Shown here in pieces: positions 4,451-44,704 of a DNA stretch of 64,000 nt. The translations under genes and the position numbers were made by a program. The notes below the pieces were generated by a model. The model was not told the origin of the DNA, searched no databases, and saw only the letters and a program-made list of their open reading frames with translations. Source of the stretch: a virus; IMG/VR virus record IMGVR_UViG_3300021168_000018; one strand, given 5' to 3'. The stretch's first letter is position 1. The number at the start of each line of letters is the position of its first letter.

Positions 4451-5048
4451 TGATTACCTTGCTCACCGTCTTCCCCTTGACAATCTTGGGCTGGACTTCC
4501 TTGCCGCCTCCAGCCATGTTCCTGAAAGCTTCCACGAACGCTACCATGATTTCCTGGTCCATCGGCTTATGCAAGTGCTTGACTGAACCGTGCATTTTCA
4601 CAGCGCCAGATATTTGTTGCTTGCTCTCCACATTCTTTTTGTAGAAGCCACGACCAGCTAGGAACTTTTCAGCGACGTTGTAGCGGAGATAGTCGTCTGG
4701 AGAGTCCATGGCTTCTTCTACGATACGAATTGCGCGACCCGCTTTGGCATCTAGGCGACCGTCGATGTTTTCGGCGTACTTGGCGGCATAGTGCAGATAG
4801 TAGTTTTTGAACAGCTTGTGATAGTGCATGTAGCGGTAGAACGTGTTGGTATCCATGCCCATCGTCTTGCAGGCATCCTTGACAGTCATTCCGTTGACGA
4901 CCTTGCGAGCTAGCTTCATTTGCCTGCGAGTCAGCTTGTCGTAGCCTCTCGGGACTATCTTCTCATCGCGCATCCGCTCTCGCATAGAACGTGTGAGAGG
5001 AGCGTCTGGATAGTCTTTGAGGAGCCTTGGGAAACGACGTATTTTCAT
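4377..5048 (-). CDS. Candidate terminase small subunit (HTH)
   Basis: HTH-like LTRRQMKLARKVVNGMTVKDACKTMGMDTNTFYRY; immediately upstream of terL; begins MKIRRFPRL. Confidence 0.5.
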   Translation of the reverse strand: MKIRRFPRLLKDYPDAPLTRSMRERMRDEKIVPRGYDKLTRRQMKLARKVVNGMTVKDACKTMGMDTNTFYRYMHYHKLFKNYYLHYAAKYAENIDGRLDAKAGRAIRIVEEAMDSPDDYLRYNVAEKFLAGRGFYKKNVESKQQISGAVKMHGSVKHLHKPMDQEIMVAFVEAFRNMAGGGKEVQPKIVKGKTVSKVINALPAPAPNADNSEVQEVDQEKAS

Positions 5049-5362
5049 AGTGGCTTTATTTTATCCTTACTGATAGAATTACTTTGGTCTACGTTGGCAA
5101 AAATCTTCTTGTAGCCTCGCGTAACGATGATGATTGTAGCGACAAAGAGCTGTCCTATGAGATGTGAATAGCGGAAAGGGACAGCTACTTCTGTGCCCTT
5201 GATAATCATCTCGTATTGCACGTTTAGATTGCCATGCTTGTCTTCAGTGATGAGCACGCGAGTTTCGGTAGTGTCCTTGTTGACGACTTCTTCCGCCATC
5301 ATTGCACCGTCGTATTTTCTTCTGGCTCTTTCTCCAGATCCATGTTGATATTGCGACCGCAC
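5045..5362 (-). CDS. Hypothetical protein
   Basis: Coupled ORF on the coding strand. Confidence 0.4.
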   Translation of the reverse strand: MRSQYQHGSGERARRKYDGAMMAEEVVNKDTTETRVLITEDKHGNLNVQYEMIIKGTEVAVPFRYSHLIGQLFVATIIIVTRGYKKIFANVDQSNSISKDKIKPL

Positions 5363-5685
5363 TGTTTCTGTGTTATCTTGATTTCCAGCTCCTGCTCCGT
5401 GTCAGCCAGTCTCTGCTCTAGCAATGTGACTGTGACGGCCATGACGTCCCACACTGTGAATTCCCGCTTAGAGCAAATCAGATTGGTCAAAGCAATCTGA
5501 CTGGCATGGTTCATGGCTGTTTGGATGTACATCTCACGGACCAGCGTATCCAGACCCATGCCGGACTCTGGTATCTCTCCCTGCATCAAATACCAGCCAG
5601 AGTAGTTTTCGAAACGCTTGATGCACTTGCCCATGCGATTGTTGATTGCTTCCTGCTCAGGAGTTAGCTTTATTTCGTCGGGCAT
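5299..5685 (-). CDS. Hypothetical protein
   Basis: RBS GAAAGGAAA before ATG at 5685. Confidence 0.5.
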   Translation of the reverse strand: MPDEIKLTPEQEAINNRMGKCIKRFENYSGWYLMQGEIPESGMGLDTLVREMYIQTAMNHASQIALTNLICSKREFTVWDVMAVTVTLLEQRLADTEQELEIKITQKQCGRNINMDLEKEPEENTTVQ

Positions 5686-6136
5686 GTTTTCCTTTCAGAC
5701 GCGGGAATCGTGGTATGATACGGATTGCATTTTTCAGAAAATGTTTCCAAGGCACTAGCCCTATCGCGAAACTTTTCTTGCCGAGGACCATTGCATAGAT
5801 GGGACAGTTGTTGGCACGCATGACCAGCACTGGAGTTGTTCCAGGTGCTTTCTTAGCGCCGTCGAGCGTCTGCTGGACCCAACGTTTTTCTTCAGATTGG
5901 TGCATCAGCAGGAAGTTTTCAAACCGTATCTTCTTTCGGTGCTTCATCTCCAGACAAAATGGAAATATCTTTGCTAGTCGCTCTGATATTTCCAAATCGC
6001 CTGCCGCACGCGGATGACCGCCGGATAATGTAGACCGCCAGCAATCCTTCTGCGTGATGCCGAACTTGCTATAGGCTTTCACTATTTCCTTGGCTATCTT
6101 ACGCTCGAACGCGCTGCCCTTGCCATGACCTTTCAT
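5657..6136 (-). CDS. Holliday junction resolvase, PD-(D/E)xK (Hjc-like)
   Basis: KGSAFERKIAKEI, AGDL, CLEMK motifs. Confidence 0.75.
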   Translation of the reverse strand: MKGHGKGSAFERKIAKEIVKAYSKFGITQKDCWRSTLSGGHPRAAGDLEISERLAKIFPFCLEMKHRKKIRFENFLLMHQSEEKRWVQQTLDGAKKAPGTTPVLVMRANNCPIYAMVLGKKSFAIGLVPWKHFLKNAIRIIPRFPRLKGKHARRNKANS

Positions 6137-6501
6137 TATTTCCGCCTGTGCTCGCTTACGAGTTTGTCTTTCTCGATATGCTTCTTAGCCTCTTTCAACT
6201 TGTGCTTGGTTTGTTTGTAGATAGCCCTGATTTCCTTGCGCTTCAGTTTGTACTGCTCACAAAGAACTTCGCCTAGACGCCTGCTTTCTGCACCAGATTG
6301 AGAGCGTTGCAGCGTCTCGTAGATTGCTAGATTTCTCTCCTCGTTTTCTATGTCCGTTGTTGATGGGACGTGGACCGTCATGCCGGCGAACACCGTCAGG
6401 AACTTTTCCGTGTCCTCTATGCCAAATATGCTATGTATCTGGGATATCAACGACTGTGGATATAACTTTCCCAATTTTTGGATGAGTGATCGTGCTGGCA
6501 T
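6136..6501 (-). CDS. Mor-like transcription regulator
   Basis: FGIEDTEKFLTVFAGMTVHVP...RNLAIY...LCEQYKLKRKEIRAI resembles the Mor/C activator layout. Confidence 0.45.
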   Translation of the reverse strand: MPARSLIQKLGKLYPQSLISQIHSIFGIEDTEKFLTVFAGMTVHVPSTTDIENEERNLAIYETLQRSQSGAESRRLGEVLCEQYKLKRKEIRAIYKQTKHKLKEAKKHIEKDKLVSEHRRK

Positions 6502-7147
6502 TTGACCTCGCCTCCAGTAGCTTATTTCTTACGACCACTAGCGAATACTGGCAATACTGCTGAATCTCTTTCTTGTCTAAGCCTAGGTCCTTGAGCTGCC
6601 GGACCACGCTGCTCTTGTTGAAGAAGAAATCCCCAGCGACCATCGTCTTGTGTATCAGCTTGCAGGCTTTGCGATGTAGCTTCTTTTTCGGTGCTACGAA
6701 ACCGTTCGTATCGAACGCTTCCACAACGGCGTCGCTTATCAGGTTCAAGACGTACTGATTTTCCGGCGTTTGGAAGACTTCCTTGCCGTTCGCTTCTGCT
6801 TCCTTTTGGGCGGATTCGTCTGTAGAGAGGCTTGAAACAGGTCGGTGAAACCTTTTGTTGATCGACTTAGACATGTTGCAAATGACAGCCCACATAAACC
6901 CAAAAGCATTTCCCCTCTGAGGCTTGAATTTCGGGATAGCTTGTAGAACTTTGAGAATGCACTCCTGCTCGATATCTGCTTTGTAGCGTTTGTCATACAT
7001 CCCCTGTTTTGAGAGTGAGGCTTTGACTAGCGGTAATGTGAGCGTTAGAATCCTATCGCGTAACTTGAAATCTTTCTTGTTGCGAACATAGCGACGCATC
7101 AGTATCGTCATTTTCCGATTGTCGAAGATTGGTTTCTTTTTAGCCAT
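6431..7147 (-). CDS. Phage sigma-factor-like protein
   Basis: Region-2-like LTLPLVKASL...DIEQECILKVLQAIPKFKPQRGNAFGFMWAVICN. Confidence 0.55.
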   Translation of the reverse strand: MAKKKPIFDNRKMTILMRRYVRNKKDFKLRDRILTLTLPLVKASLSKQGMYDKRYKADIEQECILKVLQAIPKFKPQRGNAFGFMWAVICNMSKSINKRFHRPVSSLSTDESAQKEAEANGKEVFQTPENQYVLNLISDAVVEAFDTNGFVAPKKKLHRKACKLIHKTMVAGDFFFNKSSVVRQLKDLGLDKKEIQQYCQYSLVVVRNKLLEARSNASTITHPKIGKVISTVVDIPDT

Positions 7148-8894: not shown

Positions 8895-9491
8895 TCATCG
8901 TCTCCAGAAATTCTTGCCCCATTTCAACATCATTGCTAGAACGAAGGCGTGACCCATTTTCTTATTCGTGCATGTTAGCACGTCGATTAGACTCATACCA
9001 AACTTTCTTCTGTCATAGCCATCGAAATCCCACAGCCAGATTTCATCGTGTTCCTTGTACATCCTTCGCAACTCACTGAATGCTTCTGTCTTAGCTACTG
9101 CTCTAGCGTAAAGTGGGATGTAGATTTTCGCCCGTGCTTGGACGTAGTCGTAGCTCTTTCCATCCCACCAACTATATTCCGGAGAAACGCCTTTGCCCAT
9201 CGGATATCGGATTGCTCTCTGGCAATCCCAGCCTTCCTTTGCCCACACGAGCCATCGCTTCGTTGGATGTCCAAGTCCTCCATCTTCGAACTCTGAGTAC
9301 ACCTTGGAATACTGCCAGCCATTCTCCATGTTTCTAGAGACGTGTCCACCCCAGAGTTTGCATGGCCCTAGAAGGAACGGACTCAGTTGTCGCCAGAAGC
9401 TAGATTTAGATTTAGAGACAGTGCTTATCACCTCCACGTTTTTCGGTATGTCTTTGTCTCTTGGACCGACCACTATCACGTTGGCACTCAC
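8895..9491 (-). CDS. Hypothetical protein, possibly DUF6939/NADAR-like
   Basis: LSPFLLGP...SRNMENGWQYSKVY pattern recalled from that family; inserted between the sbcD-like and sbcC-like genes. Confidence 0.4.
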   Translation of the reverse strand: MSANVIVVGPRDKDIPKNVEVISTVSKSKSSFWRQLSPFLLGPCKLWGGHVSRNMENGWQYSKVYSEFEDGGLGHPTKRWLVWAKEGWDCQRAIRYPMGKGVSPEYSWWDGKSYDYVQARAKIYIPLYARAVAKTEAFSELRRMYKEHDEIWLWDFDGYDRRKFGMSLIDVLTCTNKKMGHAFVLAMMLKWGKNFWRR

Positions 9492-10540: not shown

Positions 10541-10980
10541 TACTCCAGTTCCACCCTCTCGCCTTTGTAGATGCGCTTCGTGTGCTCCAGATTTAGCCCA
10601 TAGGCTTTCCGCAGGAATTTCCAGTCTTCTAAGTCGTGGCGCACTGTTTTCCTAAAGCCTCTAGCTCCCCTCACATGCCCGTCAGGTGGAATGTGATGCA
10701 ATTCGTGGCGAAGCACCCACAGCTTGTACGATTTCTTCTGCTTATCAAAACGATTGGCATGGAACGCGATGATGTAATCGTACTGTTCGCTAAATGTACT
10801 CCACGGCGGTCGGTTGGGGAATATCTTGCCCATCCACCTGCTATTTCGCGTGACCATGCCCATCAGTGCGATACGCTTGGTTTTCACGTGAGCCAGAACG
10901 GTCGGGAATAGCTTCTTGACGCGCTTGAGAAGTGGACGGTAGTCGTCGCGAATAATCCATTTCTTAGCGTGCCTAGCCAT
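10540..10980 (-). CDS. Putative phage metallopeptidase
   Basis: HELHH (HExxH) followed by VRHDLEDW. Confidence 0.55.
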   Translation of the reverse strand: MARHAKKWIIRDDYRPLLKRVKKLFPTVLAHVKTKRIALMGMVTRNSRWMGKIFPNRPPWSTFSEQYDYIIAFHANRFDKQKKSYKLWVLRHELHHIPPDGHVRGARGFRKTVRHDLEDWKFLRKAYGLNLEHTKRIYKGERVELE

Positions 10981-11197
10981 CGTGTGTCACCCTTGGAAAT
11001 CTGAAGTGCCCGTCGAATCTGTCTCGAAGACTTTGCTTCGCTATTTTCCTAGTCAAATACTCCAGACGCCATCTATACAGATAGTTCGCATCCAGCACTG
11101 TGATAGGTTCTCCTTTCGCCACTTTCTCGACCGCTTTCCACAACCTGTTCATAGACGCGCTATTGATTTGCATGATGCGCGGGAATCGCCTAATCAT
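10973..11197 (-). CDS. 74-aa hypothetical protein with RFPR at both termini
   Basis: ATG at 11197 overlaps the exonuclease stop; MIRRFPRI...HFRFPRVTHDG. Confidence 0.6.
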   Translation of the reverse strand: MIRRFPRIMQINSASMNRLWKAVEKVAKGEPITVLDANYLYRWRLEYLTRKIAKQSLRDRFDGHFRFPRVTHDG

Positions 11198-12126: not shown

Positions 12127-12377
12127 GAGTCACCGTTAACTATGATACAATGTTCCCAGTCCAAATCCTTGACATGCTCTTCACCACACGCTGCTCGAAC
12201 CATATCCTGTGCAAATTCCAGGTCGTTGTTTTCGTTGGGATGCAGGAACTCGAATTTACCAACTGACTTCCCATCTATTTCTACATAATGTCCGCAGCAT
12301 CCTGTTTCGCACCCATAAGAACCATGTAAAACTAGAATTCTCATTTTTCTGCCCTCACGACTGTGCTCTGTCTGCAT
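12120..12377 (-). CDS. Hypothetical protein
   Basis: Coupled ORF; probable start MRILVL at 12344. Confidence 0.4.
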   Translation of the reverse strand: MQTEHSREGRKMRILVLHGSYGCETGCCGHYVEIDGKSVGKFEFLHPNENNDLEFAQDMVRAACGEEHVKDLDWEHCIIVNGDSC

Positions 12378-13393
12378 TCCTTGTCTAACTGTTCTCTGTG
12401 CTTCCGGTAGTATTTCGGGAACTGCTTTCTCGTCATCACGGACCCACGATATCTATATGAAGCGTGCTGCTTCTTGAAGATATCGTTCTCTACGCAATAC
12501 TCCCAGATGGATAGTGATTTGTGGATTCCCTTGTCGAAATAAATTGGGAGCAGGCAGCTTCTTTCGGGCGGCGCGACTTTGTTCTTTGTACATTCCATTT
12601 TAGAGAGATAGCCGACCTTCTCATCCGCTGAGTTCTTGATAACTTTGATTCTAGATATCCTTGCGCGAACCAAAGCGTAAAATCGCAACGCCTTCCCGCC
12701 ATACGTTGTCTCCTTGCTGCCCCACATGACGCCTAGATTGGTCCTGGTCTGATTGACGCATATCAAACAGACCTTGTTTACGAATAGGAACCGAACCAGC
12801 CGGCGAAATAGCTTCGACATCTGGAGAGCCGACCGGCCCATGTCACTGCCTTCGAGTCCGGCTTTGTTGGCGAGTTCTGACCTAGTTGGCGTCGCAGCAA
12901 TAGAATCCCAACCTATTACGATTGGGGTGTTCTGGTCCGTCTTACGGATTTCGCCAACGATTGATTTGATCTGAGCATATACGTCCTCCACTGTCTCCAC
13001 TTCGCAAATGAGCAGCTTACTTTCGTCCAGTCCCACGTTCTTGGCCCTGCGATGCTCTAGAGAATACTCCGTAGGGAAGAGAATCGTGTAGTATTTATGG
13101 CGCTGACTTTCAGCAAGTGTTTCCTCCATGATAGCACTTTTGCCACTGGCTTCATTGCCGTATATCTCAACAATTCCGGGAGGAAATCCGAGTCCGTAGC
13201 AGACAATGCAATCAATAGGTAGAATGCCGCTAGACACGTAACTTCTAGGCTGGCTAAAAACGCTGTCTCCAAGTAGCGACGTAGAATTGCCATTTTTGTC
13301 CTTGTTGTACTTTTTTATGATACGCTGCAACACTTTGTCACGGACGCCACGAGGCTCCTCACCCTTCTTCAGTCGTGGAAATCTATGTATCAT
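12341..13393 (-). CDS. recA: RecA/UvsX recombinase
   Basis: EIYGNEASGKS, WDSIAA, CVNQTR, TYGGKALRFYA, KNKVAPP. Confidence 0.92.
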   Translation of the reverse strand: MIHRFPRLKKGEEPRGVRDKVLQRIIKKYNKDKNGNSTSLLGDSVFSQPRSYVSSGILPIDCIVCYGLGFPPGIVEIYGNEASGKSAIMEETLAESQRHKYYTILFPTEYSLEHRRAKNVGLDESKLLICEVETVEDVYAQIKSIVGEIRKTDQNTPIVIGWDSIAATPTRSELANKAGLEGSDMGRSALQMSKLFRRLVRFLFVNKVCLICVNQTRTNLGVMWGSKETTYGGKALRFYALVRARISRIKVIKNSADEKVGYLSKMECTKNKVAPPERSCLLPIYFDKGIHKSLSIWEYCVENDIFKKQHASYRYRGSVMTRKQFPKYYRKHREQLDKECRQSTVVRAEK

Positions 13394-14882: not shown

Positions 14883-14895
14883 ATGAAACGCTATT
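14883..14895 (-). promoter_or_regulatory. Conserved upstream motif AATAGCGTTTCAT, copy 1
   Basis: Exact 13-mer, 18 nt before the GTG at 14864. Confidence 0.7.
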
Positions 14896-22269: not shown

Positions 22270-23246
22270 TCTAGCTCCCTTGGAAATCGTATTTGTCCTT
22301 GCGGATTTTCGCCAGTAATTGGCTTGAATTTCATTCTGTGTTTTCCAACTCCGTTTTGGACATTCACATACTTCCTAAACTCACAACAGGAATGCTCCAC
22401 GCTTCTAAGTGTCAGTGGCTTCCCGGGGTACAGGTATGGGAAGTCCAGTCCCAATCGCTTGAAATGCTTCTCTTGCTCGTTGGCAAGTTGTCGCATCTTT
22501 TCCAGATACTCTCCACGTTCGCCAGCCAGCGGGAATATCAACTTAATGCCGCCCTTCGCGCCTGGACCGCAGTTTGCCCAATCGTCTTCCGAAAATGGGA
22601 CCGCTTTCACTAAAATCAAATCGCAACAAATTTCATAGCTAATGAAGCTGCCGACGCACGGAATCTGCTTGAGGATTATGAACAATTGTTCTAGACTGTG
22701 GCATGATTTAATTTGATTCAAGAGTCTAGGAATAATCAACCATAACTCATCGAGGACTTCAAAGTATTTGTCTATCTTGCTCTGCCCTTTTTCATGGACA
22801 GGCAGCGTCAAGTGCGCATTCGTAAATACGCATTCTGTCTTGTGTAGTTCCTTCAGCTCTTTCTTCCACTCACGTTTGTCGTCATGCCATTCCTCATGGG
22901 AAACGAAATGTGTTTTGTCAAACGTCTCAACTCTATTCAGCAAACGATATTGTGTTGTAAGCCAGAGCAGCTCTTTAGACATAGAGCCGGACAGCGCAAG
23001 TCCAGTGCCAGCGTTCATGCATTCCAAGTAAAACTGTGTTCCACGGTCCAGCTCGCGGTACACGTTCGTGAATTTCAGGTCGCGCAATATCGGGTCCTTG
23101 GTCCACGGCGGCGGCTGCTTGAGCCTGAAACGCTTGTGCCAGATCATGTGACGCTCGAACATGAATCTGTAGAACGCGTCAAGATTCGGCCTGTACACTT
23201 CCACTCGCGGCAGGTTCTCCCACGGCTTCTTCTTGGATTTTGTCAC
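22266..23246 (-). CDS. aGPT-Pplase1 / 5-hmdU DNA kinase-like protein
   Basis: FMFERHMIWHKR...PPPWTKDPILRDLKFTNVYRELDRGT N-terminus plus an HhH-like IPCVGSFISYEICCDL. Confidence 0.75.
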   Translation of the reverse strand: MTKSKKKPWENLPRVEVYRPNLDAFYRFMFERHMIWHKRFRLKQPPPWTKDPILRDLKFTNVYRELDRGTQFYLECMNAGTGLALSGSMSKELLWLTTQYRLLNRVETFDKTHFVSHEEWHDDKREWKKELKELHKTECVFTNAHLTLPVHEKGQSKIDKYFEVLDELWLIIPRLLNQIKSCHSLEQLFIILKQIPCVGSFISYEICCDLILVKAVPFSEDDWANCGPGAKGGIKLIFPLAGERGEYLEKMRQLANEQEKHFKRLGLDFPYLYPGKPLTLRSVEHSCCEFRKYVNVQNGVGKHRMKFKPITGENPQGQIRFPRELE

Positions 23247-23589: not shown

Positions 23590-24440
23590 TTCTCCTTTGC
23601 TAGTCTAGGAAATCTAGGGAAAACTTGCGGCAGCTTATCTCTCATTTCAGGCTTCCAGTATATCTGAAGTTCGTAGTCGCTGCTCGTGGGACCGTGCTTG
23701 ATTCTGGAACTGAGGACGCCCTTCCACCGCTCCAGCAGATAGTCGTAGGCTTTCTTCTCAGCGCCGTATTTTTCACGGTTGAGATTTGCTCCACCTGGAT
23801 TGGTCCTATGCCTGAAGTCTGAGAGGACGTAATTACAGCGCAACACTTTGCCGAATGTTCTCAAATGACGCAGCGTATACTCATAGTCTTCCTTGACCAG
23901 CGTCTTCTCGTCAAAGTAGATACCGCACGGCTTGACCACGCTGAAATCCCCGAGCACTAGACAGTTTGTGGAAATGAGCGGTCTATTTTTCGGCGGTATA
24001 GTGTTCCCTGTTCGCAGACCTATGCTCATCAGTGGATTCGAGTTGGAACTTGTACCACCTAGATACACGTCTCCAACGGAGTCCATGTTCGCCTTGACTA
24101 TCATAGCCGCTGCAAGTGCGGTGAGTGGCTGCATCCTGTCCGTGGCTAGACTGAAACGCCGCAAGTCGTCTGAAATCTGCACGCAAGGAACACCTTGTCT
24201 CCATGCGTCATCCAGAGCCATGTTCCTGCTATGCGACAAATCACCGCCACATTTCACGTTCTTAGCTCCAGCTTTGTAATAGGTCTCGACTTCGCCATGA
24301 CCCACATACCACGTCGCTGAGGTGCCAAGATATTTCTTCACTTCTGACACGCTATCAGGACGCCCATGACTGATAACTGCGAAGTAGATTTTTAGGTCTG
24401 GGTGCTTCACAGTGTACCTGCTATCTTCACGAGTTCCCAC
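23586..24440 (-). CDS. GT-A glycosyltransferase, TAGT/GREB1/base-J-GT-like (paralogue 3)
   Basis: ISHGRP, SRN, SDD, KEDYEYTL, NPGG. Confidence 0.7.
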   Translation of the reverse strand: MGTREDSRYTVKHPDLKIYFAVISHGRPDSVSEVKKYLGTSATWYVGHGEVETYYKAGAKNVKCGGDLSHSRNMALDDAWRQGVPCVQISDDLRRFSLATDRMQPLTALAAAMIVKANMDSVGDVYLGGTSSNSNPLMSIGLRTGNTIPPKNRPLISTNCLVLGDFSVVKPCGIYFDEKTLVKEDYEYTLRHLRTFGKVLRCNYVLSDFRHRTNPGGANLNREKYGAEKKAYDYLLERWKGVLSSRIKHGPTSSDYELQIYWKPEMRDKLPQVFPRFPRLAKEK

Positions 24441-27277: not shown

Positions 27278-28507
27278 TCAGTCCTCAGACTCTTGAGATT
27301 TGAGGAAGTTTTTGAACGCGATACGCAGAGACTTGCCAAGCTTCGCCACTTTCCCCACGTAATCATATTTCCCGCCGCCTCTTTTCTTCCAATTCGCAGC
27401 ACGAAGGCCGAGTTCCTCCGGCTTCGCCCTGAGCCTGAACACGAATTCATCCTCAGACTTCGGCTTTTGGATATAGACAGCTTTCTTATCTCCAATGTAG
27501 ACAAAGGGCAACTTCAGCTTGCCGTCGTAGCTCTTGTACTTGGACGCGTTCAGGATGGACTGGACGGCGTCGGATACTTTGCCCTTCGACTTGGATTCCT
27601 TCTCCGGCTTTTCCTTCTTGGATTTCTTGCCCTTCTTCTGCTTCTTCTCGGAGCGCTCTTCCTGTTCTTCCTCGCGATGCTTTTTGTGCTTTTTCACTTT
27701 CTTACCTTTCCCTTCCTTTTCGAGTTTTTCCGCATTGGCTTTCATGACCTGCTTGCAATGCTTGGCCTCTACGCAACGCTGGCATTCTGGCACATCTGGG
27801 TCGTTGTACTTCCCAAAACAGTCCTCAATCCCCGCTGGAATAGGGATAGATGGCGCACGCGGCGCATAGTTCTTGATTTGGACGAGAGAAGAGGACGCTT
27901 TCGCGTCCCCCTCTTCATCGTCGTCATCGTCGTCGTCGGAATCGTCATCATCTGACTCTTCCTCGTCTTCGTCGTCATCCTCTTCGTCCTCATCTTCGTC
28001 ATCGTCAGACTTGGACTTTTTCTTTTTCTTCTTTTTCTTGCCCTTGTCATCGTCGTCATCATCGTCGTCGTCGGACTCTTCTTCCTCGTCATCATCTTCC
28101 TCAGAGTCCTCGTCGTCTGAGTCGTCGTCTTCCTCGTCTTCGTCCGCATCGCCATCGGACTTTTTCTTCTTTTTCTTCTTGGACTTTTTGTCGTCCTCTT
28201 CCTCATCATCGTCATCGTCTGAATCGTCGGAGTCATCTTCATCTTCGTCATCATCGTCCGACTCTTCATCGTCGTCATCTTCTGACTCGTCTTCCTCATC
28301 CTCGTCATCGTCGTCAGAAGATTTCTTGCCCTTCTTGCCCTTTTTCTTTGGCTTCTCGTCTTCCTCTTCGTCGTCTTCCTCTTCTTCGGAATCGTCGTCA
28401 TCGTCTGACGATTCGTCCTCTTCCTCCTCGTCTTCGTCGTCTCTGGACTTTCCCTTCTTGGCCTTGTGCGCTTTCTTCTTGTGACTGCCTTTCGACTTCT
28501 TAGCCAT
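27278..28507 (-). CDS. Charge-block, largely disordered protein (long D/E tracts alternating with poly-K), central C-x9-C-x2-C-x5-C motif, small C-terminal domain
   Basis: Translation shows ~200 residues of D/E/S with KKKK blocks, then CFGKYNDPDVPECQRCVEAKHC. Confidence 0.8.
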   Translation of the reverse strand: MAKKSKGSHKKKAHKAKKGKSRDDEDEEEEDESSDDDDDSEEEEDDEEEDEKPKKKGKKGKKSSDDDDEDEEDESEDDDDEESDDDDEDEDDSDDSDDDDDEEEDDKKSKKKKKKKSDGDADEDEEDDDSDDEDSEEDDDEEEESDDDDDDDDDKGKKKKKKKKSKSDDDEDEDEEDDDEDEEESDDDDSDDDDDDDEEGDAKASSSLVQIKNYAPRAPSIPIPAGIEDCFGKYNDPDVPECQRCVEAKHCKQVMKANAEKLEKEGKGKKVKKHKKHREEEQEERSEKKQKKGKKSKKEKPEKESKSKGKVSDAVQSILNASKYKSYDGKLKLPFVYIGDKKAVYIQKPKSEDEFVFRLRAKPEELGLRAANWKKRGGGKYDYVGKVAKLGKSLRIAFKNFLKSQESED

Positions 28508-29102: not shown

Positions 29103-29870
29103 CTATTTCCCTCTGCCTACTTTTCCTTTCGCAGTCCTAGCTTTATTTCTAGACTTCGTTTGTACCTTGGAAACCTTAGCACGCGAGGGAATCGCCTTAT
29201 GAACCTTGGAAACAATTGTTCTCGCGCGTGACGCTCTATTACCTGCTTTCGCATTGTTTCTCCTTTTGGGTCGAACGTCCACTCGACCAGCACTTTTCCT
29301 TTGTGTCCGTTCCCGTGCCTTGACGGGTATCTTACTTTTACGACTCGCTTTCCTTTTTGCGCGTCCCAAAACTCTCTTACGAATACTAGGTCTGGGTTTC
29401 TTTCCATTAGACTCTTTGCGTATGGCGTCCGTGGCTCTCTCGATTCGTCTTGGATAAGACTCTGAGCCAATGAGGTTTTTACAGCGGGTGCAACGGACCG
29501 CCCTTTCTTCAGCATTCTCCACCTCCATTTTCCCTATTAGACAGTGACACTGTTTTGTTTCTTCCTCTCTAGGCCAGCGGAACGGACGGGGATAGCGCTT
29601 CAGCCTTCTGGGTTGTCGGACTGTGATAATGCGCCACGGCCAGTTTTCTCTTTCTTGACCGCGTTCCTTGACCCAGACCTGGACGCCGTATTTCTTGATG
29701 ATTTGATGGACCAGCGCCGTGCGGCCCGTGACCGTATCTACAACTCGTGTAATTTCTGGCACGATGTATGGCAGGAGCGCGTCACCAGACAGTTCGTTGA
29801 CCCCATACATCGTAATCATTTTCTGCTTTTCCCACTCTGCATGGATATTGCTGCGCTTTTCAGGCTCCAC
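29103..29870 (-). CDS. Hypothetical protein; basic C-terminal half overlaps another ORF
   Basis: GTG with RBS AAGGGGAG, 18 nt after motif copy 2; contains KRYPRPFRWPR. Confidence 0.45.
   Translation of the reverse strand: MEPEKRSNIHAEWEKQKMITMYGVNELSGDALLPYIVPEITRVVDTVTGRTALVHQIIKKYGVQVWVKERGQERENWPWRIITVRQPRRLKRYPRPFRWPREEETKQCHCLIGKMEVENAEERAVRCTRCKNLIGSESYPRRIERATDAIRKESNGKKPRPSIRKRVLGRAKRKASRKSKIPVKARERTQRKSAGRVDVRPKRRNNAKAGNRASRARTIVSKVHKAIPSRAKVSKVQTKSRNKARTAKGKVGRGK
29117..29515 (-). CDS. Hypothetical protein with clustered (R)FPR motifs
   Basis: Strong RBS GGAGGTG; LFPRFIRRFPRVLRFPRY. Confidence 0.65.
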   Translation of the reverse strand: MLKKGRSVAPAVKTSLAQSLIQDESREPRTPYAKSLMERNPDLVFVREFWDAQKGKRVVKVRYPSRHGNGHKGKVLVEWTFDPKGETMRKQVIERHAREQLFPRFIRRFPRVLRFPRYKRSLEIKLGLRKEK

Positions 29871-33580: not shown

Positions 33581-35062
33581 TCAGTTCACCGCCTTGCTGA
33601 TAGTGGCCTTCCCATTCCCGTTCGGCTTGGGAGTTGGAGGGACTTTATTCTCCGTCATGAAGTCGGCAGGCACGGCGTTTTCGTGCCCGTGTTCTAGTGA
33701 GAGTTGGAGCATTTTGTTGACGTCGTCATCGGTGCAATTTGCGACGTGGATGCGGTTGAGGCCCGTTTTATCCGGCGACAATATGAACATGTCGCCCTTG
33801 CCTAGCAGGTTCTCTGCTCCACGCTGGCCTAGGATGGTCTTGCTGTTCACGGCGTCTGGCATTCTGAACGCGGCGCGACCGAGGAAGTTGACCTTGATTT
33901 TGCCAGACACGACATCGACCGACGGACGCTGCGTGCAAGTGATGACGCAGATTCCAGCGGCGCGGGCCATCTGACTGATAGAGGCCATCCGTTTTGTGAA
34001 CTCCTTTTTCTCCTCCAGCACGATTTCAGCCATTTCGTCGATGACCAGCACGATGTAGTACCATTTCTCGGCCATCTTCTTGGCTGCCTGCTCTTCCAGC
34101 ATCTTGCGAACGTTGCCTTCCTTGGCTTTAAGCGCGGCTTGCTTGAGTTCGTCCGCTTCTTTCTGGAGGCGGTCGTTGAGTTCCTTGATGTTGTTGACCT
34201 TCAGCACATGAAGGTTAGCGGTGCGCCGTTTCATTTCCTGGATAAGGGTTTCCATGACGTTGAGGCAGCCCCAGACCGTGAACTCTGGCGGCATCAGCAT
34301 GTGAGGCAGCCCCTTGAACCTGAACAGCTCCACTTGCTTCGGGTCCACGAACGCGAACCGGAGTTCGCTTGGAGTGCGGATTTCTGCCAGACTGGTAATG
34401 ATTTGCTTGAGCAGTGTAGATTTGCCGGTCCCGGTAGAACCGCCGACCAGCATGTGAGGGAATGTAGCCAAGTCTTCCACGTATGGAGCGCCTTCCGACG
34501 TGAGCCCGAAGTTGAGCGGGAGCGCCATGTCGTAGCGATGCGCCAGAGTGTTCTTGAAGCAGGACTCATGCGTGACAACGAGCCTTTCTCCGTTCGGCAT
34601 GGAAACGCCGACCACTGGCTTGCCGGGGATGCGGCGGATTGTGACCGTCTCGACCGACAATGCCAGCGCGAGGTCCTCATTGAGGGACTTGAGCCTCTTG
34701 ACTCGCGTGAACCGGTCAGGCGTGAATAGGTACTCCGTCACGACCGGCCCTTTGACTATGCCGGTCACTTGACCCGGACAGTCGAAGTTTTTGCAGGACT
34801 CCGTTATCATCTTGACGATTTCTTCCTGCTTCTTGCCGACCGGGTTGAGTTCGCGTGGGAACCGTTTCTTGCCGTCTGGCTTTTTCTGGCCTTCCAACTT
34901 GAACGGTGACGTCGTGCTGCCACAGAGCGGACAGTGACGGCGCTTTGTGAGCAGGTCCTTGTTAACGATGCGGCAATTGCGACAGATTTTGTACTCGCTG
35001 ATTTTGTACATCATTTCTTCAGACAGTTTTTGCATGACTTGTCTCCATTTGTTCTCGCTCAC
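33581..35062 (-). CDS. FtsK/SpoIIIE-family DNA translocase lacking membrane anchor and gamma domain
   Basis: Alpha domain GPVVTEY...EDLALAL...IPGK, GGSTGTGKS, VIDEMAE, ARAAGI...TQRPS; N-terminal CxxC...CxxC. Confidence 0.88.
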   Translation of the reverse strand: MSENKWRQVMQKLSEEMMYKISEYKICRNCRIVNKDLLTKRRHCPLCGSTTSPFKLEGQKKPDGKKRFPRELNPVGKKQEEIVKMITESCKNFDCPGQVTGIVKGPVVTEYLFTPDRFTRVKRLKSLNEDLALALSVETVTIRRIPGKPVVGVSMPNGERLVVTHESCFKNTLAHRYDMALPLNFGLTSEGAPYVEDLATFPHMLVGGSTGTGKSTLLKQIITSLAEIRTPSELRFAFVDPKQVELFRFKGLPHMLMPPEFTVWGCLNVMETLIQEMKRRTANLHVLKVNNIKELNDRLQKEADELKQAALKAKEGNVRKMLEEQAAKKMAEKWYYIVLVIDEMAEIVLEEKKEFTKRMASISQMARAAGICVITCTQRPSVDVVSGKIKVNFLGRAAFRMPDAVNSKTILGQRGAENLLGKGDMFILSPDKTGLNRIHVANCTDDDVNKMLQLSLEHGHENAVPADFMTENKVPPTPKPNGNGKATISKAVN

Positions 35063-38183: not shown

Positions 38184-38186
38184 GGA

Positions 38187-41224: not shown

Positions 41225-41980
41225 CTATAATGAAACGCTATTTGTTTGAAAACTGCGCTTGAGTGCTTTTTTGGCAACATGCCAGATATGCCTATGCCGG
41301 TTTAAGAACCTGGAGCACTTGCAGTAGTCTTCGAACCAGCGATTCCAAAAACTCTTCTTGTGCTTCTTGGAGTAGACAGCCAGGAACCACGGGCTCAGCT
41401 CCTTGGCGAAGGCGTAGATTGCTTCGTCAGTTTTTATTTTCTGTCCTTCCACGACTCGCTTGATTATGCCGCCCGAATCTCGTATCGAAGAGTAGATGTC
41501 CAAGTCTGACCAGCCATCGAGTTCCTTCTTCCAGTCGATATCTAGGATGTAGTGCTTTCGTTCCTTGCGGTAGACCCAGAGAAACTTTTCGATAGTGCTG
41601 TCTTTGGAAAACCAAGTCGGGTGAGGCATCCATTCCACGTTCTTAAATTTTCCATAGCGACACATGACTTTGATGTAGAGAGCGGGGTCGATGTTCTGCT
41701 GGATAAGTTTTTCTGCCAGCAAAATAAATTTCAATTTTACTTTCCAGCCTGCTTTGGTTTTGTAGACGTCGTAGTTGAAATTCCTATACCTTAGATTTCT
41801 CGAACGAGCCATCTTGTTGAACGCGATACGGATAATTTTCTCAGCGATCCTTGTTGCACGATCCAACTCTAAACGCGGAAACCGTTTTTTACTTTTGAAG
41901 TTTCTCTTCCGTCCCATTTTCTCTCCACAGGAAAAATATCTTTTTCTTTTCGGGAGGACAAGCGTCAGCGCAGTCCTCAA
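41225..41980 (-). CDS. Basic hypothetical protein (probable start 41917) with KKRFPRL
   Basis: Coding-strand ORF; its last codons encode motif copy 3. Confidence 0.6.
   Translation of the reverse strand: MRTALTLVLPKRKRYFSCGEKMGRKRNFKSKKRFPRLELDRATRIAEKIIRIAFNKMARSRNLRYRNFNYDVYKTKAGWKVKLKFILLAEKLIQQNIDPALYIKVMCRYGKFKNVEWMPHPTWFSKDSTIEKFLWVYRKERKHYILDIDWKKELDGWSDLDIYSSIRDSGGIIKRVVEGQKIKTDEAIYAFAKELSPWFLAVYSKKHKKSFWNRWFEDYCKCSRFLNRHRHIWHVAKKALKRSFQTNSVSL
41230..41242 (-). promoter_or_regulatory. Conserved upstream motif AATAGCGTTTCAT, copy 3
   Basis: Exact 13-mer, 19 nt before the ATG at 41210. Confidence 0.7.
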
Positions 41981-41999: not shown

Positions 42000-42283
42000 T
42001 CACTACTGAAAAATTTTTTGAAATGAACTGTGCTCCCTATTGTTCCTGTTACATGGCGAGTAGTTAGCTACAAGTGCTCCCTACGGTCGCACTTTCCAAG
42101 ACCTTAAGATAGTTGCTACCTATGCTGCCTAGGATCATAATGCACCTATAGGTCCTTAAGGTCCATATTCGCCATGTAACGCTGAGCTGTCCCATAGTGG
42201 ACATACTGGCCGTGTAACGCACATATGGGCCATACTGTCCCACCGCGCCTGCGAGGGTATGGATGGGCTTGACTTTCTCCATT

Positions 42284-42721: not shown

Positions 42722-42863
42722 GTTGAATTACGGCTATGAGTTTGAACTCCGCAAGGCAATTGTGACACTCAATTTGTGTCACCTGATGGCCTTCAATTTG
42801 GACCTGTTTCTTGACGTCAATTAACGTGAACGGATATTTACAGAACAAGCAAATGTTGAACAC
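42648..42863 (-). CDS. Small Zn-ribbon protein
   Basis: CLFC...CHNC. Confidence 0.45.
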   Translation of the reverse strand: MFNICLFCKYPFTLIDVKKQVQIEGHQVTQIECHNCLAEFKLIAVIQRGPKKKFVSNETSDGMAKQSTGGK

Positions 42864-42866
42864 TTT

Positions 42867-44369
42867 TTACCTTTCTATGATTGAAATTTTTGCGATTTTT
42901 TCATTGATGTAGTGCTTCAAACGCGCCATGGAATGCTTCATCAAATACTCGTTGTGAGTGTCAATGAAATCACTGATATACACAACATTTCCGGTTCTAG
43001 GGTTCTTTCTCAAGACACGGCCCATGCGCTGTAAAATCAACTCCCATCCAAGTCCTGCCGCCGAGTTTATCCATGCGTCCACCCCGCCTGAAATGTCCAT
43101 GCCCGTATCGAATATCGGGGATGCTAGGAGTACTCCAAGTTTCCCATTTTCAAATCTCTTTAGAACCTTTTTTCTGATAAGCAATGGCGTGCTACCTGAT
43201 AGAAATTCTACTGGCAAATCCATATTGCTCTCTAACAGTTTTTTCAATTTCAAGCCATGAGAAATCCTTGCGACCGTGACCAGAGTTTTGTAGTCCTTGT
43301 TGAGATATCGCAGCACTTCCCTAACGACCAACTCGTTGCGCTTCTTGTTCTTCACGATGCCGAGACTGTAGGCGGCTGCGAACTTTGCTTTCTTCGGTAT
43401 TTCTTCAGTGTGGACTTCTACGAAACGGATAACAGGTTTGGCGCTGCGACCCAAGTCTACGAGTTCCTTGTTTCTGACCTCGGCAATTATCGGACCTGTC
43501 ATACCGACGTAACTTAGCATTTTCTTTTTGTTTTTTCTATCGATTGTTCCGGACAGACTGAAACGCATCGGCGCTTCATTTCTATTTACAATTTTGGAGC
43601 ATTGAGTAGCACGGTTCACATGAGTTTCGTCGATAAATAGGATATCACACTTTTCTTGAAAGCGTTCGAAATCAGACTCTTGAAGTAAATTAGATGCGGT
43701 CTGCACAGTCGCAACGACAATTCCTGGTTTTTGCGGAATGCGCTTCTTACCTCCTCCAACCATAAAAATTCGTACATCGTTTGGAAGATGCTTACGGAAT
43801 CTATCAGCCGTTTGCTGTGCAAGTCCAGCACGATGGATAAGGAAGAGCACACGAGGCATTCGTTTGAGTTGTCTGTGAAATTCAGAGACAATAGCGCAAG
43901 CGCATTCGGTCTTGCCTGTATTAGTAGATGCATGTATGATTCCTTTGCCTTTTCGCAAAGCCTTGTTTACGATTTCAACTTGCTCAGCGCGATTCTCGAT
44001 ACTATCCTCAAACTGAAATCTCTTGATTGGTTTGAAAACTGGAAGTTGCTGACGATTGTCTTTGACTGAATATTTCACGCCTTTCTTGTCCAAAAACTTT
44101 ATCACCATATCTAGAAGTCCGCTGGCAAACGTGTCCCCGCGTCTCTCATAGAACTTGATGTACTGTACAGATTCCTTCAACTGTTCAATCTTCTTATCGC
44201 GCTTTTCGTCGTTCTTGATATCACTGAAATAGCCCACTCTTTTCAGTGCTGCTCGCTGCCTCCACCAATTGTTCTTGTCCTTGACTCGCAGGCATCTAAA
44301 CATCTTCTTCAACTGGCGCTCTGGGCCAGAGAATGACGTGCGCGCCGGACGTACAGTGAGTTCAATCAT
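42867..44369 (-). CDS. Superfamily 2 helicase (UvsW-like)
   Basis: STNTGKT, DETH, SGT, DTGMD, QRMGRVLR. Confidence 0.88.
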   Translation of the reverse strand: MIELTVRPARTSFSGPERQLKKMFRCLRVKDKNNWWRQRAALKRVGYFSDIKNDEKRDKKIEQLKESVQYIKFYERRGDTFASGLLDMVIKFLDKKGVKYSVKDNRQQLPVFKPIKRFQFEDSIENRAEQVEIVNKALRKGKGIIHASTNTGKTECACAIVSEFHRQLKRMPRVLFLIHRAGLAQQTADRFRKHLPNDVRIFMVGGGKKRIPQKPGIVVATVQTASNLLQESDFERFQEKCDILFIDETHVNRATQCSKIVNRNEAPMRFSLSGTIDRKNKKKMLSYVGMTGPIIAEVRNKELVDLGRSAKPVIRFVEVHTEEIPKKAKFAAAYSLGIVKNKKRNELVVREVLRYLNKDYKTLVTVARISHGLKLKKLLESNMDLPVEFLSGSTPLLIRKKVLKRFENGKLGVLLASPIFDTGMDISGGVDAWINSAAGLGWELILQRMGRVLRKNPRTGNVVYISDFIDTHNEYLMKHSMARLKHYINEKIAKISIIER

Positions 44370-44704
44370 TTGAGTCTGGGCCAGTGTCGCCGTTTCAAGT
44401 CATACCTTGGAAAACGGTGAACCTTGCCATTTTCATATCGTGGAAACCGCATCAACGGTACGACCAGCGTTTCGATGTCTACGTGCTCCTTTTTCGTGGA
44501 ATTATCCCATTCTACAGTGACGCTGCCGGGACTCTTATAGACTACCTTGCCGTATCTCTTGTTTCCTGCGAAAAGCTGAAGAAAGAACCTGGATTCGTTT
44601 TTGAGTGTTTGTATCTGCACTTCCTTGAATTCCACAATCCTCGGGAATCTGCGTATTTCTAGCCTTGGAAACCGTTTGATGCGTTTCTGTATAGATAGCA
44701 GCAC
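44366..44704 (-). CDS. 112-aa protein with four RFPR motifs plus HWPR around a small beta-rich core
   Basis: GTG with RBS GGGG, 20 nt after motif copy 4; coupled to the SF2 helicase. Confidence 0.7.
   Translation of the reverse strand: MLLSIQKRIKRFPRLEIRRFPRIVEFKEVQIQTLKNESRFFLQLFAGNKRYGKVVYKSPGSVTVEWDNSTKKEHVDIETLVVPLMRFPRYENGKVHRFPRYDLKRRHWPRLK

What the first reader, a model, noticed from the sequence alone, without database searches (positions are those of the whole stretch)
5022..44674. The short linear motif RFPR occurs 15 times in 10 unrelated non-virion proteins
Copies: TerS candidate N-term (5025-5036); resolvase C-term (5699-5710); 74-aa ORF both ends (11177-11188, 10991-11002); RecA N-term (13373-13384); 5-hmdU kinase-like C-term (22278-22289); glycosyltransferase C-term (23604-23615); 132-aa ORF twice (29165-29194); FtsK (34853-34864); basic ORF N-term (41873-41884); 112-aa ORF four times (44405-44674). 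Variants RYPR, RWPR and HWPR also occur. Codons vary freely (CGN and AGR at both Arg positions; TTT/TTC; CCA/CCG/CCT), so selection is on the peptide. Most copies sit in terminal tails appended to conserved folds. None is in the virion or GT9 genes at 44.9-64 kb. My rough estimate from typical residue frequencies is well under one chance copy per window. Inference: a phage-wide address tag, e.g. a docking motif recruiting replication, recombination, modification and packaging enzymes to a hub or condensate, a modification site, or a degron. I know of no described phage system using this motif.
Basis: partly seen in the sequence, partly recalled or inferred. Interest (0 to 1): 0.9.

Follow-up and report, generated by a model that had tools for sequence, protein, structure and literature searches.

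The report
Shared RFPR peptide tag in phage
A four-residue peptide, Arg-Phe-Pro-Arg, sits in the loose end-tails of about ten unrelated DNA-handling proteins of this uncultured ~100 kb phage and is kept across its whole clade, so it looks like a common address tag whose receptor is still unknown.

Summary
All 15 listed RFPR copies are at the given coordinates on the coding (minus) strand. A 16th copy lies out of frame and the other strand has none. About 0.14 copies are expected per proteome.

The signal is in the peptide, not the DNA:
- 15 of 17 DNA-pattern hits lie in codon phase 0.
- All six Arg codons are used at both Arg positions.
- Orthologues keep RFPR while up to 6 of the 12 bases change.

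The motif runs through the clade. 60 of 68 RecA relatives (45-100% identity) begin M-x(1-7)-R-[F>H,W,Y]-P-R, and 12 of 14 TerS-like relatives carry it. A colinear 92.9 kb relative has 25 forward and 4 reverse pattern hits, with tags at the same places in nine protein families. Other orthologues gain or lose tags.

The wider motif is [IVLP]-x-R-[FHYW]-P-R-[L...]. Of 108 copies, 94 lie within 30 residues of a protein end, and tandem copies are often 6-8 residues apart.

Best reading: a docking motif that brings DNA-transaction proteins to one shared partner. That partner was not found. DNA binding, a degron and an arginine modification site remain as rivals. I found no paper, cultured relative or known motif class that matches.

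The parts
5025..5036 (-). RFPR at residues 5-8 of the TerS-like protein (4377-5048), which lies just upstream of TerL (3191-4450)
   Evidence: 12 of 14 family members carry the N-terminal I-R-RFPR-L; the other two are truncated gene calls.
5699..5710 (-). RFPR at residues 143-146 of the 159-aa PDDEXK_15 nuclease (5657-6136). The tag is in the C-terminal tail, outside the domain (residues 4-120).
   Evidence: The L002 orthologue keeps RFPR with 6 of the 12 bases changed.
10976..11197 (-). 74-aa ORF with RFPR at both ends (11177-11188 and 10991-11002)
   Evidence: Coding potential favours this frame. The syntenic small ORF is tagged in every relative examined.
13373..13384 (-). RFPR at residues 4-7 of RecA (12341-13393)
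   Evidence: 60 of 68 clade RecAs are tagged. R4, P6 and R7 are invariant in 54 aligned sequences. Residues 1-18 have no secondary structure in the AlphaFold2 model.
22278..22289 (-). RFPR at residues 320-323 of the 326-aa 5-hmdU DNA kinase helical-domain protein (22266-23246)
   Evidence: The Pfam domain spans residues 22-297. The tag is kept in G001 and L006, decayed to RFAR in L002, and absent in L005.
23604..23615 (-). RFPR at residues 276-279 of a 284-aa protein of unknown family (23586-24440) in the DNA-hypermodification cluster
   Evidence: No family was found for this protein.
29117..29515 (-). Nested 132-aa gene whose C-terminal tail reads LFPRFIRRFPRVLRFPRY (RFPR at 29183-29194 and 29165-29176)
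   Evidence: Coding potential switches to this frame. G001 has an orthologue with a conserved GGAGG-N6-start and 3 tags. Ten homologues are called as separate proteins, 8 of them tagged, and one is an in-frame fusion with the zinc-ribbon ORF.
29568..29597 (-). RYPRPFRWPR, two variant tags just before a CxC...CxxC zinc ribbon in the 255-aa ORF (29103-29870)
   Evidence: The same RYPRPFRFPR or RFPRPFRFPR module is in G001, L004 and L294.
34853..34864 (-). RFPR at residues 67-70 of the FtsK-like protein (33581-35062), in the linker between the N-terminal zinc ribbon and the FtsK alpha domain (which starts at residue 79)
   Evidence: The G001 orthologue is tagged at residue 57.
41873..41884 (-). 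RFPR near the N-terminus (MGRKRNFKSKKRFPRL) of a basic protein of unknown family (41225-41917)
   Evidence: The G001 orthologue is tagged at residue 11.
44366..44704 (-). 112-aa protein with four RFPR (44663-44674, 44639-44650, 44438-44449, 44405-44416) and one HWPR (44375-44386). Its stop overlaps the start of the SF2 helicase gene.
   Evidence: The syntenic 108-aa ORF of G001 has 2 RFPR and 2 RYPR.
27278..28507 (-). Candidate partner only, not shown to bind. This is a 409-aa protein built of alternating K-blocks and D/E/S-blocks, then a zinc-ribbon-like motif and a C-terminal domain of about 95 aa. It lies next to the sigma-like gene and to the most heavily tagged ORFs.
   Evidence: The C-terminal domain is missing in the tag-poor lineage. 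The Atlas structure search shows a YjbR/DUF1801-like likeness.

Best explanation
RFPR is the core of a peptide-level short linear motif, about [IVLP]-x-R-[F>H,Y,W]-P-R-[L/Y/...]. It sits in unstructured N- or C-terminal tails and interdomain linkers.

The inferred mechanism is that the motif is a common docking handle. Through it, many unrelated DNA-transaction proteins bind one shared partner at the place where phage DNA is recombined, modified and packaged. The tagged proteins include:
- RecA and the TerS-like protein;
- PDDEXK and Endo VII nucleases;
- 5-hmdU kinase proteins and a DNA methyltransferase;
- an FtsK-like translocase and a metallopeptidase;
- zinc-ribbon proteins and several small ORFs.

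Small proteins with 2-5 tandem tags would act as multivalent adaptors or competitors.

What is shown: the enrichment, the peptide-level selection, the position in tails, the conservation across the clade, and the gain and loss of tags among orthologues. What is inferred: that the motif binds something, and that the partner is a protein. The partner is unknown.
For: **Enrichment.** About 100-fold, and on the coding strand only.

**Peptide-level selection.**
- 15 of 17 DNA-pattern hits lie in codon phase 0 (P about 4e-6 under random phase).
- Orthologous tags keep the peptide while the codons change: CGATTCCCGCGT against AGGTTTCCCAGG, and AGATTTCCACGA against AGATTCCCAAGG.

**Conservation.**
- R, P and R are invariant and F nearly so in 54 aligned RecAs, on a par with catalytic residues. 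60 of 68 clade RecAs are tagged, while bacterial RecAs and other phage RecAs align only from about residue 18.
- 12 of 14 TerS-like relatives are tagged.
- G001 (92.9 kb) has 25 forward and 4 reverse hits, against 0 and 4 for the reversed-pattern control. Tags sit at the same positions as in the window in nine families.

**Behaviour typical of a linear motif.**
- Tags come and go in orthologues. The metallopeptidase is tagged in L005, L006 and G001 but not in the window. The HMUDK tag has decayed to RFAR in L002.
- 94 of 108 copies lie within 30 residues of a terminus, split 59 on the N side and 49 on the C side. Some end the protein exactly (RFPR*).
- Hydrophobic residues at -2, +1 and +4 and arginines at 0 and +3 give a period of three. 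This fits an extended or polyproline-II ligand with one oily and one basic face.
- The RecA tag lies in a coil before the first helix.
- No Lys replaces Arg in 60 RecAs, which argues for specific recognition.
Against: - No receptor was identified, and nothing here shows binding of any kind.
- Every tagged protein also binds or processes DNA, so DNA itself could be the 'hub'.
- Tandem copies only 6-8 residues apart and the F/H/Y/W interchange fit base stacking on a nucleic acid as well as they fit a protein pocket.
- The replisome proteins (UDG-PolA, DnaB-like helicase, primase, SSB, UvsY-like, SbcCD-like, 5'-3' exonuclease) are never tagged. This would be odd for a general replication hub.
- The lineage of L007, L009 and L294 lost the tags from RecA and most other proteins but kept the phage's core genes.
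Confidence: 0.5

Rival explanations
1. The motif is a nucleic-acid-binding micro-motif, comparable to an AT-hook or SPKK unit. The aromatic residue stacks on or wedges into DNA and the two arginines hold phosphates. The tails would then anchor phage enzymes on DNA, possibly on the phage's own hypermodified-thymine DNA rather than host DNA.
For: - Every identifiable tagged protein works on DNA. These include RecA, TerS, nucleases, HMUDK, a methyltransferase, FtsK, the portal protein, an FCS-like zinc-ribbon protein and a metallopeptidase in a genome slot where a relative has a SprT-like gene.
- Arg is never replaced by Lys, and F/H/Y/W interchange.
- Tandem arrays have 6-8 residue spacing.
- The flanks are mildly basic, with net charge +1.4 and +0.9 over 8 residues.
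- The phage has a thymidine hypermodification cluster.
Against: - The conserved hydrophobic residues at -2 and +4 are not needed for groove or phosphate binding.
- RecA tags are followed by acidic residues.
- The RecA tag is only about 11 residues from the oligomerisation helix, on the outside of the filament (plus established RecA structure).
- The tag-poor lineage still has HMUDK and TAGT genes.
- DNA polymerase, helicase, exonuclease and SbcCD are untagged.
Confidence: 0.22
2. The motif is a degron or a protease processing site. F-P-R followed by a cut is a classic P3-P1 site for trypsin-like proteases, and in the N-terminal RecA and TerS-like tags a cut after the last Arg would usually expose Leu, Tyr or Phe, which are N-degron residues. 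The motif would then time the removal of middle-phase proteins.
For: - The location is terminal.
- Position +1 is L, Y or F in 48 of 60 RecAs.
- A conserved phage metallopeptidase is encoded nearby.
Against: - Several tags end the protein exactly (RFPR*) or leave 1-2 residues, so there is nothing to cut off.
- In L006 the +1 residue is unconstrained.
- The metallopeptidase is itself tagged in L005, L006 and G001.
- TerS and the portal protein are late proteins.
- Proteins with 4-5 tags make little sense as degradation substrates.
Confidence: 0.1
3. The motif is a site of arginine modification, for example ADP-ribosylation by the phage's DRAT-like transferase.
For: - A DRAT-like domain is encoded at 1687-2853.
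- Both arginines are invariant.
Against: - The DRAT-like gene lies between TerL and the portal gene, like a packaged head protein. L004 shows a PI3/PI4-kinase-like hit at about that position; G001's syntenic protein gives only a weak match to the window's DRAT-like one (E 3e-7) and was not scanned for the domain.
- No known arginine transferase motif resembles RFPR (my own knowledge).
Confidence: 0.05
4. The signal is a DNA or RNA element at gene boundaries, such as a promoter, a Shine-Dalgarno-like site or a modification site, that merely happens to translate as RFPR.
For: - Copies lie near gene starts and ends.
- There is a mild excess of TTT-CCA-AGG: AGG at the last Arg in 7 of 15 copies against 17% background (P = 0.007), and TTT in 9 of 15 against 30%.
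- Two C-terminal copies overlap the next gene's ribosome-binding site.
Against: - 15 of 17 hits are in phase 0.
- The spacing to start codons varies from +10 to +34 and from -14 to -90 nt, and some copies are internal.
- Orthologues change up to 6 of the 12 bases yet keep the peptide.
- The variants are F to Y, W or H, which are aromatic and not neighbours by single base changes.
Confidence: 0.01

Closest known systems
Hub-binding linear motifs of DNA enzymes: the bacterial beta-clamp-binding motif (QL[SD]LF), the PIP-box, and APIM ([KR]-[FYW]-[LIVA]-[LIVA]-[KR])
   Same: - A peptide of 4-6 residues sits at the extreme N- or C-terminus, or in a linker, of many unrelated DNA repair, recombination and modification enzymes.
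- Orthologues gain and lose it.
- It lies in disordered tails.
- APIM is also basic-aromatic-x-x-basic and can sit 2-3 residues from the N-terminal Met.
   Different: - The sequence fits none of these patterns (Pro at position 3, Arg at position 4, four residues).
- No clamp or clamp loader is detectable in the 92.9 kb relative or in the window.
- Replisome proteins are untagged.
- The receptor is unknown.
Phage T4 gp45-binding C-terminal tails shared by gp43, gp33 and gp55 (from my own knowledge)
   Same: - One phage-encoded hub is addressed by the same short tail on unrelated phage proteins.
- Here the most heavily tagged small proteins sit beside a sigma-like gene, as gp33 goes with gp55.
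   Different: - The T4 tails are hydrophobic and acidic, C-terminal only, and present on 3-4 proteins.
- RFPR is basic and aromatic, occurs at either end, and is present on 10-17 proteins per genome.
- The sigma-like proteins here are not tagged.
Cargo-addressing peptides: the T4 capsid targeting sequence and encapsulin cargo-loading peptides (from my own knowledge)
   Same: A short, shared terminal peptide on unrelated proteins serves as an address, and is sometimes repeated.
   Different: - Those peptides load cargo into a capsid-like shell.
- The RFPR clients are TerS, RecA, nucleases and DNA-modifying enzymes, which act outside the capsid.
- There is no L/I-x-E cleavage site and no sequence likeness.
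AT-hook (R-G-R-P) and SPKK minor-groove motifs
   Same: These are arginine-specific, proline-containing units that often occur in tandem in tails of DNA-associated proteins.
   Different: - RFPR has an obligatory aromatic residue and flanking hydrophobic positions.
- It has no Gly.
- DNA binding has not been tested.
SH3-type polyproline-II ligands (+xPhiPxPhiP and PhiPxPhiPx+)
   Same: The residues repeat with a period of three, giving a hydrophobic face and a basic face around a proline.
   Different: - There is one proline only.
- No SH3-like receptor was found.
- The model of the beta-domain of the nested 132-aa protein matched no known fold (best Z 4.3).

Membership tests
Short linear motif (general class) | 3-10 residues with few fixed positions | tested here: met
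   Four fixed positions, R-[FHYW]-P-R, with preferences at -2 and +4.
Short linear motif (general class) | Lies in disordered or terminal regions outside folded domains | tested here: met
   Tags lie outside the Pfam domain limits. 94 of 108 copies are within 30 residues of a terminus. RecA residues 1-18 are coil in the model.
Short linear motif (general class) | Evolutionary plasticity: gained and lost among orthologues, and convergent on unrelated proteins | tested here: met
   Family tables.
Short linear motif (general class) | Binds a defined partner domain | not testable with these tools
   No receptor is known. This needs binding assays or a proteome-wide screen.
Beta-clamp-binding motif | Consensus QL[SD]LF or QLxLxL | tested here: not met
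   No Gln or Leu pattern is present; the consensus is R-F-P-R.
APIM (PCNA/beta-clamp-interacting motif) | [KR]-[FYW]-[LIVA]-[LIVA]-[KR] | tested here: not met
   Position 3 is invariant Pro and position 4 invariant Arg, and Lys is never used.
AT-hook | Core G-R-P or R-G-R-P in a basic context | tested here: not met
   There is no Gly, and an aromatic residue is obligatory.
T4-type capsid targeting sequence | N-terminal only, ending in an L/I-x-E protease site, on proteins packaged in the head | tested here: not met
   49 of 108 tags are on the C side. There is no L/I-x-E. The clients are TerS, RecA, nucleases and the like.
DNA-level regulatory element | Occurs independently of reading frame and is conserved as nucleotides | tested here: not met
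   15 of 17 hits are in phase 0. Orthologous copies differ at up to 6 of 12 bases.
Degron | Confers protease-dependent instability | not testable with these tools
   This needs half-life measurements.

The most novel reading that the evidence does not exclude
RFPR is the client tag of a so far unknown phage-encoded organiser of the infected cell. The leading candidate is the conserved 409-aa protein made of alternating lysine blocks and acidic blocks, with a zinc ribbon and a YjbR-like C-terminal domain. It is encoded beside a sigma-like factor and the multi-tag proteins. On this reading it would form a scaffold or condensate on phage DNA into which 10-17 tagged enzymes partition. That would be a nucleolus-like addressing system in a phage that is not a jumbo phage.
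Probability: 0.15. Interest if true: 0.9.

Novelty: new variant of a known kind. Interest (0 to 1): 0.8.

Why it matters
Proteome-wide linear-motif networks are well known for PCNA, the beta-clamp and SSB. As far as I could find, none has been described for a phage's own proteome.

In this clade, one 4-residue tag marks 10-17 proteins per genome. The clade has at least 60 RecA lineages, genomes of about 100 kb, and no cultured member.

Why this is useful:
- It gives a direct experimental handle, because the peptide can be used as bait to find a central organiser of phage DNA recombination, hypermodification and packaging.
- It assigns a context to orphan ORFs: any ORF with an RFPR tail belongs to this network.
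- It shows that tail-borne motifs can be found from sequence alone in uncultured viruses.
- If the partner is a scaffold or a reader of modified DNA, it would be a new way for phages to sort their own enzymes.

Tried and rejected
- **Complex prediction.** SSB-like protein plus UvsY-like protein plus RecA residues 1-50, each given as an alignment. Score 0.00, no verdict either way.
- **Presence/absence profiling for a receptor.** Within RecA +/- 10 kb, every conserved family is also present in the tag-poor L007. Only the metallopeptidase is missing there, and it is itself a tagged client.
- **Own-genome flanks beyond the window.** Gene tables only were returned, with no DNA.
- **Relatives of FtsK in IMG/VR.** None found.
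- **Homologues of the 112-aa multi-tag protein.** Only the protein itself was found. The Atlas gave no usable hit.
- **Fold of the nested 132-aa protein.** The model had pLDDT 76, but there was no Foldseek match at E <= 0.001 and the best VIA Z was 4.3.
- **PDB sequence searches.** Nothing for the SSB-like, 238-aa, 198-aa and 284-aa proteins. A 30-aa tag-rich tail gave only insignificant likeness to ribosomal protein eL39.
- **IMG/VR scan for tandem RFPR-x2-RFPR.** Mostly 9-nt microsatellites that read FPRFPR. A few hits were true clade members.
- **Apparent upstream similarity 'RRGLQM' before two N-terminal tags.** At 11177 this is the out-of-frame reading of the preceding gene's end plus the ribosome-binding site and an ATGA stop/start overlap. 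Before RecA it looks like the same ribosome-binding-site and ATGA geometry, but no upstream ORF of 50 aa or more ends there.
- **blastn hits of 13439-13670 to jumbo phages.** This stretch encodes the acidic tail of the SSB-like protein. I take the hits to be low-complexity matches, not homology.
- **Clamp loader.** PF13177 is absent from G001-G004.
- **Host clues.** No tRNA in the window, no prophage copy in GTDB genomes, and no cultured relative.

Full report
**The window.** All long ORFs lie on the minus strand. Family searches show a tailed phage with these parts:
- Packaging: a TerS-like protein and TerL.
- Recombination and repair: a PDDEXK nuclease, SbcCD-like proteins, a 5'-3' exonuclease, RecA, a UvsY-like mediator and a gp32-like SSB.
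- Replication: a UDG-PolA fusion, a primase, a DnaB-like helicase and an SF2 helicase.
- Thymidine hypermodification: a ThyA-like protein, a 5-hmdU DNA kinase helical-domain protein, a radical SAM/SPASM protein and two TAGT glycosyltransferases.
- Others: two sigma-like proteins, an HU-like protein and an FtsK-like protein.
- A virion block from about 44.9 kb that includes a tape-measure protein.

The source contig is 104 kb.

- Six-frame translation finds 16 RFPR on the minus strand and none on the plus strand.
- In a conservative gene set of 19,592 residues, 10 copies fall in 7 proteins against 0.14 expected. In 2000 within-protein shuffles the count never exceeded 3. RFPR is the most over-represented 4-mer that is not low-complexity.
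- Its anagrams occur 0-4 times.
- The degenerate DNA pattern has 17 hits, all on the minus strand, against 3.8 +/- 2.1 in dinucleotide-preserving shuffles.

**Peptide or nucleotide signal?** Because the copies lie near gene boundaries, I tested a DNA or RNA element first. It fails.
- 15 of 17 pattern hits are in codon phase 0 of the carrying gene (P about 4e-6).
- The small carriers (74, 112 and 230/251 aa) score as coding in the motif's frame.
- The copy at 28792-28803 lies in a non-coding frame of the sigma-like gene and is the one likely chance copy.
- Distances to start codons vary widely.
- All six Arg codons occur at both Arg positions.
- The nearest relative (RecA 82% identical; L001/L002) keeps RFPR in RecA, the TerS-like protein and the PDDEXK nuclease while changing 1, 3 and 6 of the 12 bases respectively.
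- A mild excess of TTT-CCA-AGG remains unexplained.

**Conservation across the clade.**
- A protein search with RecA found a sharply separated clade of 68 clusters (45-100% identity, E <= 1e-84, against about 1e-41 for bacterial RecA) on contigs of up to 107 kb.
- 60 of the 68 begin M-x(1-7)-R-[F56,H2,W1,Y1]-P-R. The rest are truncated calls or belong to one sub-lineage.
- In an alignment of 54 RecAs, R4, P6 and R7 are invariant, like the Walker lysine.
- Bacterial RecAs and other phage RecAs align only from about residue 18.
- 12 of 14 TerS-like relatives carry I-R-RFPR-L at the N-terminus. The other two are truncated gene calls.
- Loci around RecA from ten further relatives are all rich in tags on the coding strand only.
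- A colinear 92.9 kb relative, G001, has 25 forward and 4 reverse pattern hits, against 0 and 4 for the reversed-pattern control.
- G001 is tagged at the same place as the window in nine families: RecA, TerS, HMUDK, FtsK (in the linker after the zinc ribbon), the basic 230-aa protein, the 74/89-aa ORF (both ends), the zinc-ribbon ORF, the nested ORF, and the multi-tag ORF upstream of the SF2 helicase.

**Anatomy of the motif.** Over 13 genomes there are 108 copies in 77 ORFs.
- 94 lie within 30 residues of a terminus, 59 on the N side and 49 on the C side. Some end the protein exactly (RFPR*).
- Position -2 is I, P, V or L in 78 of 108 copies, and position +1 after the motif is Leu in 42.
- Tandem copies are mostly 6-8 residues apart.
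- Hydrophobic residues at -2, +1 and +4 and arginines at 0 and +3 give a period of three. This fits an extended or polyproline-II ligand with one oily and one basic face.
- In one lineage His often replaces Phe (RHPR). Lys never replaces Arg.
- The RecA tag lies in a coil that precedes the first helix of a confident model (pLDDT 85).

**Gain and loss.** Tags behave like typical linear motifs.
- The metallopeptidase is tagged on an added C-terminal extension in L005, L006, G001 and L216, but not in the window.
- The HMUDK tag has decayed to RFAR in L002 and is absent in L005.
- A RusA-like nuclease is tagged only in L006.
- Endo VII proteins, a DNA methyltransferase, an HMUD1 kinase and the G001 portal protein are tagged in single genomes.

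The clients are therefore DNA-transaction proteins. The replisome (PolA, helicase, primase, SSB, UvsY-like, SbcCD-like, exonuclease) is never tagged.

**The tag-poor lineage and the core cluster.** RecA is untagged in L007 and L009. These two loci share Band_7 and Acb2-like genes, so they probably represent one lineage. Extending L007's phage type upstream (L294) shows that it still keeps tags. They are concentrated in one cluster:
- the zinc-ribbon ORF (RFPRPFRFPR);
- the ORF that follows or overlaps it (three tags);
- a small ORF next to the sigma-like gene.

This cluster is conserved in the window, G001 and L294. It comprises an HU-like gene, the zinc-ribbon ORF with its nested ORF, a sigma-like gene and a polyampholyte protein, and it holds the most heavily tagged proteins.

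The polyampholyte (409 aa in the window) has alternating K-blocks and D/E/S-blocks, a zinc-ribbon-like motif, and a C-terminal domain of about 95 aa. That domain is present in all five tag-rich genomes examined (window, G001-G004). It is missing in L294. The Atlas structure search likens it to YjbR/DUF1801 domains (TM about 0.6; a lead only). This is a single evolutionary contrast, so I offer the protein only as a candidate partner.

**Mechanism.** I commit to a shared docking motif (confidence 0.5) for these reasons:
- Four positions are invariant and arginine is specifically required.
- The flanking hydrophobic positions are conserved.
- The tags sit in end tails.
- Tags are convergently added to unrelated folds.
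- Multi-tag small proteins exist.

The main rival is direct binding to DNA, possibly the phage's hypermodified DNA (0.22). It explains why all clients are DNA proteins and why tandem arrays occur. It does not explain the hydrophobic flanks, the acidic residues after the RecA tags, or the loss of tags in a lineage that keeps HMUDK and TAGT. A degron or processing site (0.1) and an arginine modification site (0.05) fit worse. A DNA-level element is contradicted by the data.

**Comparison with known systems.** The nearest analogues by function are clamp- and PCNA-binding motifs (CBM, PIP, APIM) and the T4 gp45-binding tails. RFPR matches none of their patterns. No clamp loader is detectable in G001-G004. 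Literature searches found no description of an RFPR motif in phages. There is no cultured relative in INPHARED and none in GTDB genomes.

**Verdict.** The 'address tag' reading is the best available but remains unproven, because the receptor is unknown. The finding is new as a motif and as a network, within the known kind of hub-binding linear motifs. Interest is high.

Noticed in passing
window 29103-29870 and 29117-29515 (minus strand); G001 58452-59306 and 58705-59127; L294 4087-4750: This is a conserved pair of overlapping genes. A 132-aa ORF is nested in the +1 frame inside the basic 3' half of a 255-aa zinc-ribbon ORF, and has its own GGAGG-N6-ATG/TTG start. Ten homologues are called as separate proteins. 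In one relative (P0142) the two parts are fused in a single frame. The arrangement is either overprinting or programmed frameshifting.
   Followed up: partly
window 27278-28507 (minus strand): A 409-aa protein has about 210 residues of alternating lysine blocks and Asp/Glu/Ser blocks, then a zinc-ribbon-like motif, a K/E-rich linker and a C-terminal domain that the Atlas search likens to YjbR/DUF1801. It is conserved in G001-G004. In L294 it lacks the C-terminal domain.
   Followed up: partly
window 13436-14401 (minus strand): A likely gp32-type SSB lies between the UvsY-like gene and RecA. It has a zinc-finger core, a long acidic tail, and a conserved C-terminal motif D-L-E-K-x-Y-K-K-L-K-K-K. 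That motif is absent in the two genomes whose RecA is untagged (L007, L009). In L008 the tail is rich in Ser and Arg instead of acidic. The true start is probably the GTG at 14401.
   Followed up: partly
window 28792-28803 (minus strand): A 16th RFPR lies in a non-coding frame inside the sigma-like gene. It is probably a chance copy.
   Followed up: yes
window 1687-2853 and 1-792 (minus strand): A protein with a DRAT-like ADP-ribosyltransferase domain is encoded between TerL and the portal gene. According to the source contig's gene table, the portal protein is a 1332-aa fusion.
   Followed up: no
window 14894-17560 and 20876-26922 (minus strand): There is a UDG-PolA fusion and a thymidine hypermodification cluster: a ThyA-like protein, a 5-hmdU kinase helical-domain protein, a radical SAM/SPASM protein and two TAGT glycosyltransferases. 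The final base modification is unknown.
   Followed up: no
all 15 in-frame motif copies in the window: The codons are biased towards TTT-CCA-AGG. AGG is used at the last Arg in 7 of 15 copies against 17% background, and TTT in 9 of 15 against 30%. Two C-terminal copies double as the next gene's ribosome-binding site. The rest is unexplained.
   Followed up: partly
window 8895-9491 (minus strand): A 198-aa ORF (weak DUF6939 match) lies between the Mre11/SbcD-like and SbcC-like genes. These two genes are adjacent in L004 and L006; L005 has a 149-aa ORF between them.
   Followed up: no
window 6431-7147 and 28500-29102 (minus strand): Two separate sigma-70 region-2-like proteins are encoded, and neither is tagged. 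This suggests that the phage directs its own transcription programme.
   Followed up: no
IMG/VR loci L020, L028, L066 and others: Many viral contigs, including giant-virus bins, carry 9-nt microsatellites that read FPRFPRFPR in one frame. They are unrelated to the tag system and will contaminate any naive pattern search.
   Followed up: yes
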